Below, one piece after another: positions 52,701 through 55,700 of a DNA stretch of 64,000 nt. Source of the DNA: Mytilus edulis (taxonomy: Eukaryota); assembly GCF_963676685.1 (NCBI RefSeq), contig NC_092345.1, positions 52,142,001 through 52,206,000 on the forward strand, read 5' to 3'. The position numbers and the translations under genes were made by a program. Every line of letters begins with the position of its first letter. Positions within the stretch are counted from its first letter, which is position 1. The notes under the pieces are model-generated. The model was not told where the DNA came from. It worked only from the letters and a program-made list of their open reading frames with translations, and ran no database searches.

Positions 52701-55700
52701 CCCAACATATAGAATACTTGGGAGCCCTTTTCAATCTAGAGAAAGGGATAGTAACACCAACAGAGACAAGATTTCAAAGTATTTTGGAAATAATACATGC
52801 ATTACTAAACAGTCAACAGATTCAAGCAGTAGTAATTTTAAAATTACTAGGTCTGATGGCTTCATGCATTTACCTTATACCCATGGGAAGATTACATATG
52901 AGGCCAATCCAACTTTATTTGTTAGCACTATGGAGGCCAAACATCCAACCATTGAATCAGTTCATTCCTGTACGAATGAGCTTGACAGTACATTTAAGAT
53001 GGTGGACAAATCGGACAAATATTTTCAAAGGAATGCCTTTACAGGAGCCGACAATTCAGTTGACATTGATCACAGATGCCTCAGAACTAGGATGGGGAGC
53101 GCATCTAGGAACTTGGCAGACATCAGGAATATGGCCAAAGTCTTATCAACTAAAACATATAAATTGGTTGGAATTGAAGGCTGTACAGTTAGCTCTTCAA
53201 GAAGCTGTACAGATCGTGAAAGACATGAATATTTTGATAAGGTCGGACAATACAACAGTGATAAGTTATATCAACAAACAGGGCGGAACCCATTCGCCAG
53301 AACTGTGTTACCTAACTTGGGACCTTTACCAATGGTGTATTCAGAACAAAGTAACTATCCGTGCAGTTCACATTCCGGGAAAGATAAATCTACTAGCAGA
53401 TGCTCTTTCGAGGGGGAAAAATCTTTTCAAGATGACAGAGTGGACACTCAACAATATGATAGTAAATATGATATTTCAGAAACTGGGAACTCCAAGTATA
53501 GATCTGTTTGCAACAGCTCAGAACAAAAAGTTAGCAGTGTATTGCTCTCCGGTTCCAGACATAGCAGCATTTCAAGTAGATGCTCTAACTGTAAATTGGA
53601 GCGGCATGTATGCATATGCATTTCCTCCTCCAATCCTTGTTCCTCGGATATTACAAAAGATTCGAGAAGAAAAGACAGTTGTTCTTCTAATAGCACCAAT
53701 GTGGCCAAGACAATCTTGGTATCCTCAGATGTTGGATCTACTGATAGATATTCCAATAAAACTACCACTTCTGCCAGATCTGCTTTCACAAATTCACAAT
53801 CGAATACAAATATTTCATCAGAGTCCAGAAACATTAAATCTTGTGGCATGGAAATTATCAAATTGCGTCATAAGTCAAAAGGATTTTCTGAAAAAACTGC
53901 AGAAATTATGGCAAATGCCAGAAAAACATCTACTCAAACAGTGTATGATGCAAGACTCAGAATATATGACAGTTGGTGTAAAGAACATAATATCAATTCC
54001 ACTTCTTCAACTATACCAGAAGTAGCAGAATTTTTGTTATATCTTTCTACTGTAAGAAAATGCAAACCACAGACTATTACAGGTTACAAGTCAGCCATAA
54101 CATTGATTCATAATAATGGATTAGAAATTTCAAACAGTTCTGAGTTATCATCATTGATTAAAGGGTTATTTAATATGAATCCACCAATTCGTCAATTGAC
54201 CCCAAATTGGAATTTACCTTTAGTTTTATTGATGCTAACAAAACATCCTTTTGAACCTTTAGATTCGATTGAATTAAAGTTTTTAACATTCAAAACAGCT
54301 TTTCTAGTAGCTATTGCATCAGCCAGTAGAGTTAGTGAAATTCATAGCTTATCATTAGATGATGGACATTTCAGATTTGAAAAAAATGGAATTAAACTAT
54401 TACCAAATATGCAGTTTCTTGCAAAAACACAGACTTTGAATAGGCCTTGGGAGCCATTATTCATTCCTTCATTTAATTCTTATGCAACTGATTCTGAGGA
54501 TTTGAAACTATGCCCTTGTCGTGCATTAAGGATTTACATAAATAGAACAAAATCTATAAAGAAATCAAACAGACTGTTTGTTACTTATCAAAAAAACCAT
54601 CATAAAGAAGCTTCAAAGGATTCTATTGCAAGATGGATTGTTAATACAGTGCGTTATGCATATGAAAATGCAGATAAAGACACTTTAAAAACAGCAAGAG
54701 CACATGATACAAGAAGACTCTCTACTTCATGGGCTTTATTTTGTGGTGTATCAGCTGAAGAAATTTTAAAAGCAGCTCACTGGACATCTGAAACTACTTT
54801 CACTTCATTCTATTTGAAGGATGTTCCAGACCACCAGTCCATTTTTGGCAAGTCAGCAATTTTGGATTCTTTCAAGAGAGGAAGACAGAAATAGGTGAAT
54901 ATAATTTTTTAATTCCTTATTTTATTCCTTTCCCACCTCCTTTAGTAGGGCTGCAAATTCTTTTGCAATTAGTTAAGGAGGCAGGTAAGTGGAAATATTG
55001 AAGTGAACTAGGATTTTTGTGGGTAAAATCCTTGTTCATGAAATATTTACACTTACCTGCCTCACCCGCCCTCCTCCCCTCTCGAGGAATTACTTTATAT
55101 TGGTCTCGAGAAACTGAAGAGTTACGCAAGGGAGATAACTGGAGGTGTTACCGTATTTATATTAAAAAACTCGACGAACGTATGGGGAAGTAGAGGGAAA
55201 TTGCAATTAGTTAAGGAGGCAGGTAAGTGTAAATATTTCATGAACAAGGATTTTACCCACAAAAATCCTAGTTTATAACAATCGTGCCTGCCATATTAAA
55301 TATGGAGATGTGGTATGATTGCCAAGGAGTCCAAAATAACATGGATTTATGCAACATAGACAACTATTTTGTCTGATAAGAAAGTGTAAATATTACTTCA
55401 AGTTTAACACTGTATTACCTATTTCAGCTTTGCTGGTTGTATTGTGCAGCTTTAGGATGTGACATGTTTGATTGTGTTTTTCAGATTTGCTGTAGACGTC
55501 GTTGTTTGTGCAGCTCTAGGATGTGGAATGTTTGATTGTGTTTTTCAGTTTGTTGTAGACCTTGTTGTTTGAGCAGCTCAAGGATGTGACATGTTTGATT
55601 GTGTTTTTCAGATTTGCTGTACACCTAGTTGTTTATGCAGCTCTAGGATATGGAATGTTTGATTGTGTTTTCAGATTTGCTGTAGACCTTGTTGTTTGAG

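What the first reader, a model, noticed from the sequence alone, without database searches (positions are those of the whole stretch)
55405..55484. The ancestral intronic acceptor now leads into a dead exon copy; the working acceptor is built from former coding sequence
Seen: the only unique-sequence acceptor (tgtattacctatttcAG, ending 55427) precedes unit 1. That unit has lost the TAGACCTG-like segment (57 nt in total) and reads GGC TTT GCT GGT TGT ATT GTG CAG CTT TAG. The branch point, pyrimidine tract and AG used by the functional exon (56122-56186) derive entirely from duplicated exon sequence. The TTTC shared by the old acceptor (taTTTCag) and the exon (gttTTTCca) is a plausible microhomology for the founding slippage. 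Inference: this is a snapshot of splice-site turnover by intronisation of tandem-duplicated exon DNA.
Basis: partly seen in the sequence, partly recalled or inferred. Interest (0 to 1): 0.7.

Follow-up and report, generated by a model that had tools for sequence, protein, structure and literature searches.

The report
Splice acceptor rebuilt from exon copies
In a mussel tRNA-modification gene, twelve broken tandem copies of one exon sit in front of the real exon, and the RNA examined splices at the last copy, whose signal is mostly former coding DNA; this is a likely harmless variant of the "mirage" repeats already described in lancelets.

Summary
Real, with one correction. The gene is Mytilus QTRT1. 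Twelve dead 57-65-nt copies (55428-56186) of the first 62 nt of exon 7, each ending in AG, precede the intact exon (56187-56262); splicing to any of them gives a stop. In the one informative RNA run, 35 reads join exon 6 to 56187 and none lies upstream. The working pyrimidine tract and branch-point candidates are exon-derived, but the AG is not: the exon has CA there, so the AG is a copy of the old intron's. TTTC is the longest acceptor/exon microhomology in the exon. Dead unit 1 also occurs in two runs of a second species label, apparently without the upstream DIRS insertion. No array-less relative could be reached, so "ancestral" stays inferred. The intron position is old (47 of 87 distant matches): acceptor replacement, not intron gain. 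It belongs with amphioxus "mirages" (PMC3087553) and human CBS 844ins68; the scan has noted mirages elsewhere in this genome and in others. The twist is a unit with only 2-6 intronic bases.

The parts
49328..49466 (+). QTRT1 exon 6, ends ...YLMGV-G(GG), donor GTAAGG at 49467
   Evidence: translation; PF01702 match; its last letters are the loose ends of 35 RNA reads at 56186
50067..55273 (+). DIRS-like tyrosine-recombinase retrotransposon in intron 6; likely younger than the array and polymorphic
   Evidence: long ORFs with RT-like and recombinase-like motifs read by eye (family names recalled, no profile scan run); inverted terminal/internal repeats; contigs of X6 and X7 leave the stretch at 55270 and run 280 and 534 letters further
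55403..55427 (+). Inferred ancestral acceptor: branch-point-like TTTAAC (A at 55407, -21), tract, AG at 55426-55427; now leads into dead unit 1
   Evidence: same sequence on contigs of X2, X6, X7
55428..55484 (+). Unit 1, 57 nt: decayed exon-7 copy (8-nt deletion, 1-nt insertion, 2 substitutions), stop at codon 10
   Evidence: covered without the deletion being filled in X2, X6, X7
55485..56121 (+). Units 2-11, 63-65 nt each: exon positions 1-62 plus AG; 0-6 substitutions per unit
56122..56186 (+). Unit 12, 65 nt: supplies the working acceptor; branch-point candidates at 56163 (-24) and 56172 (-15), tract = former F-D-C-V-F codons with one extra T, AG at 56185-56186
   Evidence: RNA joins exon 6 directly after it
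56187..56262 (+). Intact exon 7, 76 nt, [25 protein letters not shown]; donor GTAGGT at 56263
   Evidence: matches human QTRT1 residues 265-289 of 7nq4_A; 13 reads join 56262 to 57130
57130..57324 (+). QTRT1 exon 8

Best explanation
Exon 7 of mussel QTRT1 is preceded by twelve dead tandem copies of its first 62 bases, the RNA examined splices at the AG closing the last copy, and the array likely began with one slip between the TTTC of the old acceptor and a TTTC inside the exon. That slip (inferred) duplicated 'AG + exon 1-62', so the old acceptor at once led into a frameshifted copy, while the junction put the old AG behind the U-rich F-D-C-V-F codons, which serve as a ready-made pyrimidine tract. 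The spliceosome likely picks the last AG because only it is followed by a complete 76-nt exon and its donor (exon definition), and nonsense-mediated decay would remove errors. Later unequal exchange (inferred) grew the array to twelve units, which decay without coding constraint. The mRNA and protein are unchanged: a tolerated 'mirage' minisatellite that swapped the acceptor's sequence without moving the exon boundary.
For: Anatomy: 12 units plus exon, all 12 upstream acceptors give stops. RNA: in X24, 35 of 64 laid reads carry exon-6 letters directly before 56186/56187, 13 join exon 7 to exon 8, depth is 0 over 56095-56182. Junction: the 4-nt microhomology at exon position 62 is the longest of 71 positions, and position 62 ties for the top pyrimidine count (13 of 18) and has the most T among 56 possible breakpoints. 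Old and new acceptors both have 13 pyrimidines in -20..-3, within the 11-15 of six other correctly placed acceptors of the gene (the exon-4 row was misplaced by one base and is left out); the old one has a TTTAAC at -21. Units decay neutrally: 5 synonymous and 11 non-synonymous distinct changes against 24% synonymous expected, P=0.55. The 76-nt exon with an AG directly before it occurs in 47 of 87 distant eukaryote matches, and 0 of 87 has an upstream copy. Four full-length Mytilus gene models have one clean exon 7. The same flank and unit 1 occur in 3 of 4 DNA runs, two organism labels. Mirages do not disturb splicing in lancelets (PMC3087553, PMC3902484).
Against: No array-less Mytilus allele or relative was seen, so the ancestral state rests on internal evidence only. 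Only 1 of 4 RNA runs was informative (X21 and X22: 0 reads; X23: 2 reads), and it is not the individual whose DNA was laid. X23's 2 reads lie on the array itself (90-95% alike, one running on unlike the stretch): unspliced RNA, DNA, or splicing to an upstream unit cannot be told apart. Reads with 62 or fewer exon-7 bases fit units 8 and 11 equally; by the median loose length (82 of 145) that is about half of the 35, 9 of 64 reads fit two places, and events under 3 reads are not listed. Decay of stop-bearing RNA would hide upstream acceptor use. X10 shows array contigs but no cover of the old acceptor (55361-55437). The branch point was not mapped.
Confidence: 0.82

Rival explanations
1. The array is a regulatory device: decoy acceptors divert a share of transcripts to nonsense-mediated decay, so copy number would tune QTRT1 level.
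For: All 12 upstream AGs have the same tract as the working one and all give stops; the last 17 exon-derived bases carry 0 substitutions in 12 units while the first 45 carry 14 variable sites (post hoc P=0.006); X23's only 2 reads lie on the array; the array is shared across species labels.
Against: 0 listed upstream joins against 35 at the last acceptor in X24; with the boundary set beforehand at 20 nt the contrast is P=0.19; a G>T change in that segment is seen in contigs of all 4 DNA runs; published mirages are reported as not disturbing splicing.
Confidence: 0.07
2. 55405-55427 is not the ancestral acceptor but a chance AG in unrelated DNA (the true old intron end having been lost or replaced), and the junction AG arose by point change.
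For: No outgroup DNA seen; unit 1 starts with C where the other intact starts have A; X10 has no cover of this flank; acceptor-like TTTCAG is common in AT-rich introns (inference).
Against: The AG sits exactly in register with exon position 1, has a TTTAAC at -21 and no AG between them, and shares the one 4-nt microhomology that explains the junction; CA to AG would need two changes.
Confidence: 0.07
3. The array, or the decay of unit 1, is an assembly artefact or private to one animal.
For: Tandem repeats are hard to assemble; no single contig spans the array.
Against: Unit-to-unit junction contigs at several times single-copy depth in 4 of 4 runs, and flank-plus-unit-1 contigs in 3 of 4 runs from different studies.
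Confidence: 0.02

Closest known systems
Amphioxus 'mirage' minisatellites (Adh3, globins BflGb6/BflGb9, troponin C, PGBD5); PMC3087553 and PMC3902484, passages read
   Same: Tandem repeats spanning an intron-exon boundary, carrying splice signals, with haplotype differences and concerted evolution, and normal mRNA.
   Different: BflGb6 units (150-160 bp) include the 3' end of the intron; here only 2-6 intronic bases are in the unit, so the working tract comes from coding DNA. Whether the 10-72-bp Adh3 units do the same could not be read (original paper not seen; the BflGb6 alignment is in a supplement that was not opened).
Human CBS 844ins68; PMC2630376, introduction passage read
   Same: Duplication of an intron/exon junction; the distal site is used and the upstream exon segment is spliced out as intron, giving normal mRNA.
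   Different: One copy, not twelve; it duplicates mostly intron (proportions recalled, not from a call), so the acceptor stays intron-derived.
Intron gain by tandem duplication of an AG/GT proto-splice site (Rogers model; PMC2891723, passages read)
   Same: Duplicated coding DNA becomes intron.
   Different: No new intron and no new position: the unit starts AG|AT, has no used donor, and only lengthens an ancient intron.

Membership tests
Mirage minisatellite | Tandem repeat whose unit spans an intron-exon boundary | tested here: met
   Unit = old acceptor's AG (2-6 intronic nt) + exon positions 1-62; 12 copies
Mirage minisatellite | Units carry splice signals | tested here: met
   12 of 12 units end in TTTCAG
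Mirage minisatellite | Regular splicing is not disturbed | tested here: met
   35 reads at the last acceptor, none listed upstream, in 1 informative run of 4; 2 unexplained array reads in another
Mirage minisatellite | Concerted evolution among units | tested here: met
   Units 5 and 6 identical; one two-base change shared by 6 of 12 units, other changes shared in mosaic
Mirage minisatellite | Length instability between haplotypes | tested here: inconclusive
   Unit variants differ between runs (extra-T contig in 2 of 4; G>T variant absent from the window) but contigs give no copy number
Mirage minisatellite | Somatic instability (reported for Adh3) | not testable with these tools
   needs long reads from several tissues of one animal
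Rogers-type intron gain | Duplicated AG/GT proto-splice site | tested here: not met
   unit boundary is AG|AT (AG|CT, AG|TT in units 1, 3)
Rogers-type intron gain | New intron position | tested here: not met
   same acceptor position in 47 of 87 distant matches
QTRT1 (eukaryotic TGT catalytic subunit) | Best match to QTRT1 rather than QTRT2, intact exon with DMFD motif | tested here: met

The most novel reading that the evidence does not exclude
The working acceptor is a rolling part: unequal exchange keeps replacing the last unit, so each unit has served, or can serve, as the acceptor and selection keeps the coding-derived tract intact across the array while the rest of each unit decays; different mussels would then use different copies as the acceptor of an essential gene.
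Probability: 0.2. Interest if true: 0.55.

Novelty: new variant of a known kind. Interest (0 to 1): 0.33.

Why it matters
It shows, with RNA support, that one short duplication can replace nearly the whole 3' splice signal of a conserved housekeeping exon with coding-derived DNA while the exon boundary stays put, a change that comparisons of intron positions cannot see. It also suggests why such slips are survivable: microhomology with the pyrimidine end of an acceptor picks out pyrimidine-rich exon sites. Thirteen near-identical acceptors in a row make a natural test of exon definition. The class itself is known and no function beyond tolerance is shown.

Tried and rejected
Outgroup DNA: the metagenome scan gave 87 eukaryote exon-7 matches but none close to the window (best 66 of 76 identical); the prokaryote-genome scan for the old acceptor gave 0; the run search gave near-identical holders only, and 4 of its 14 DNA-type or unlabelled genomic runs were laid. 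X10's gap over 55361-55437 is a hole in filtered contigs and is not used as evidence of a different flank. Neither lay held the whole array or exon 6, so joins to units 1-11 were tested only indirectly. Summed contig depth was rejected as a copy number. The first unit alignment had tail artefacts and was replaced. Intron gain was rejected. Recursive splicing was considered and dropped: no AG|GT at unit ends. Literature: 'splice site turnover'+'tandem' 0 papers; 'Mytilus'+'QTRT1' 0; seen as search listings only, none of whose titles or abstract starts described a mussel case. The other two arrays in the window (2075-2398, 5039-5644) were read but not tied to exons.

Full report
Gene and setting. 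The window lies in a 1.37-Gb genome. PF01702 matches five exons here; exons 7 and 8 match human QTRT1 best, and exon 8 is 97-100% identical to five Mytilus proteins. Nine exons were located. Intron 6 runs from 49467 to 56186 and holds a DIRS-like retrotransposon at about 50067-55273, about 150 nt of flank, and a tandem array of period 64.

Check of the observation. Cutting at TTTCAG gives 12 units of 57, 64, 63, 63, 63, 63, 64, 64, 64, 64, 65 and 65 nt (55428-56186), then the intact 76-nt exon 7 (56187-56262) with donor GTAGGT. All 12 upstream acceptors lead to a stop; only the 13th gives [25 protein letters not shown]. Each unit is exon positions 1-62 followed by AG, where the exon itself has CA. 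So the AG came from the old intron end; the tract and branch-point candidates came from the exon. The flank before unit 1 has one full-length match in the genome, itself.

Which acceptor is used. Four raw RNA runs were laid on 56095-57400. X21 and X22 gave 0 reads, X23 gave 2, X24 gave 64. In X24, 35 reads carry exon-6 letters directly before exon 7, 13 join 56262 to 57130 (GT..AG), and depth over 56095-56182 is 0. About half of the 35 have too little exon 7 to exclude the identical units 8 and 11 individually, but a read entering an upstream unit and running past base 62 would show unit sequence, and none is listed (listing needs 3 reads). X23's two reads lie on the array and cannot be classed. 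Decay of stop-bearing RNA would hide errors, and the RNA donor's DNA was not seen. Within these limits the last acceptor is the working one.

Is it real and shared. Contigs of four genomic runs were laid on 55240-55548. All four show array contigs; X2, X6 and X7 have one contig each running from 55270 through the old acceptor into unit 1 with 0, 1 and 3 other letters and at most one 1-base gap, and no 8-base insertion is listed, so dead unit 1 is shared by two organism labels. The X6 and X7 contigs continue 280 and 534 letters past 55270 off the stretch; I read these as DIRS-free alleles (their letters were not shown), which would make the DIRS insertion younger than the array. X10 does not cover the old acceptor. 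No array-less allele appeared.

Ancestry. A motif scan of metagenome contigs gave 87 exon-7 matches from distant eukaryotes: 47 have AG directly before a 76-nt exon, 20 read through without an intron, 18 have another arrangement, 2 are too short, and 0 of 87 has an upstream copy of its exon. So the intron position is old and the array is not general. Internal evidence favours 55403-55427 as the old acceptor: in register with exon base 1, TTTAAC at -21 with no AG between, 13 pyrimidines, and the only 4-nt microhomology with the exon falls exactly at the junction.

Mechanism. Shown: anatomy, stops, RNA join, sharing between runs, neutral pattern of change (5 synonymous, 11 non-synonymous, P=0.55). 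Inferred: a TTTC-mediated slip duplicated AG plus 62 exon bases; the old acceptor was out of use from that moment because 64 extra bases break the frame; the new junction worked because position 62 follows the most T-rich run of the exon (top of 56 breakpoints); exon definition with the single donor and nonsense-mediated decay (general knowledge, not tested) favour the last AG; unequal exchange grew and mixed the units. One loose thread: the last 17 exon-derived bases show no substitution in 12 units against 14 variable sites in the first 45 (post hoc P=0.006; P=0.19 for a preset 20-nt window), and the extra-T unit that ends the array here was seen in contigs of only 2 of 4 runs. This hints at, but does not show, continuing replacement of the terminal unit.

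Comparison. Earlier AI notes of this scan pointed to amphioxus mirages and report them at several other places in this genome and in other animals; their frequency estimates were not tested here. [quoted passage not shown] This array meets four of the six features listed, one is inconclusive and one untestable. CBS 844ins68 is the single-copy human parallel in which the distal site is used and the upstream exon piece becomes intron (PMC2630376). Rogers-type intron gain fails both tests (PMC2891723). What I did not find described in the passages read or in searches is a unit with so little intron that the working tract is coding-derived; the Adh3 paper and the globin supplement were not seen and may hold such a case.

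Verdict. New variant of a known kind, interest 0.33.

Noticed in passing
window 50067-55273: DIRS-like retrotransposon in QTRT1 intron 6 with long open RT-like and recombinase-like frames and 99% complementary terminal repeats; appears polymorphic (X2 likely heterozygous, X6 and X7 with likely empty sites).
   Followed up: partly
window 54985 and 55223: The DIRS terminal/internal repeats put two consensus donors (AG|GTAAGT) on the gene's sense strand, 200-440 nt upstream of the old acceptor; effect on splicing of this allele untested.
   Followed up: no
window 56166: Unit 12 alone has a T>A change that creates an AG at -20/-19 of the working acceptor, just after the -24 branch-point candidate; no RNA join was listed there.
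   Followed up: partly
window 56187-56262 vs 57130-57324: RNA run X24 shows 0 differences in exon 7 and 7 in exon 8; could be chance or homogenisation with the array.
   Followed up: no
window 55293-55330: A short, extremely high-copy repeat end sits between the DIRS and the old acceptor (summed contig depth above 100,000 in three runs).
   Followed up: no
window 2075-2398 and 5039-5644: Two further minisatellites (44 and 38 nt units) not tied to an exon here.
   Followed up: no
G000:C2:2445553-2451019: Second TGT-family locus on the same chromosome, likely QTRT2.
   Followed up: no
L064, L074: Two metagenome loci in which the 5' part of the QTRT1 exon-7 equivalent is replaced by unrelated sequence.
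   Followed up: no
P0005: A database Mytilus model fuses unrelated sequence onto exon 8, lacking exons 1-7; perhaps a gene-model or assembly break near the array.
   Followed up: no
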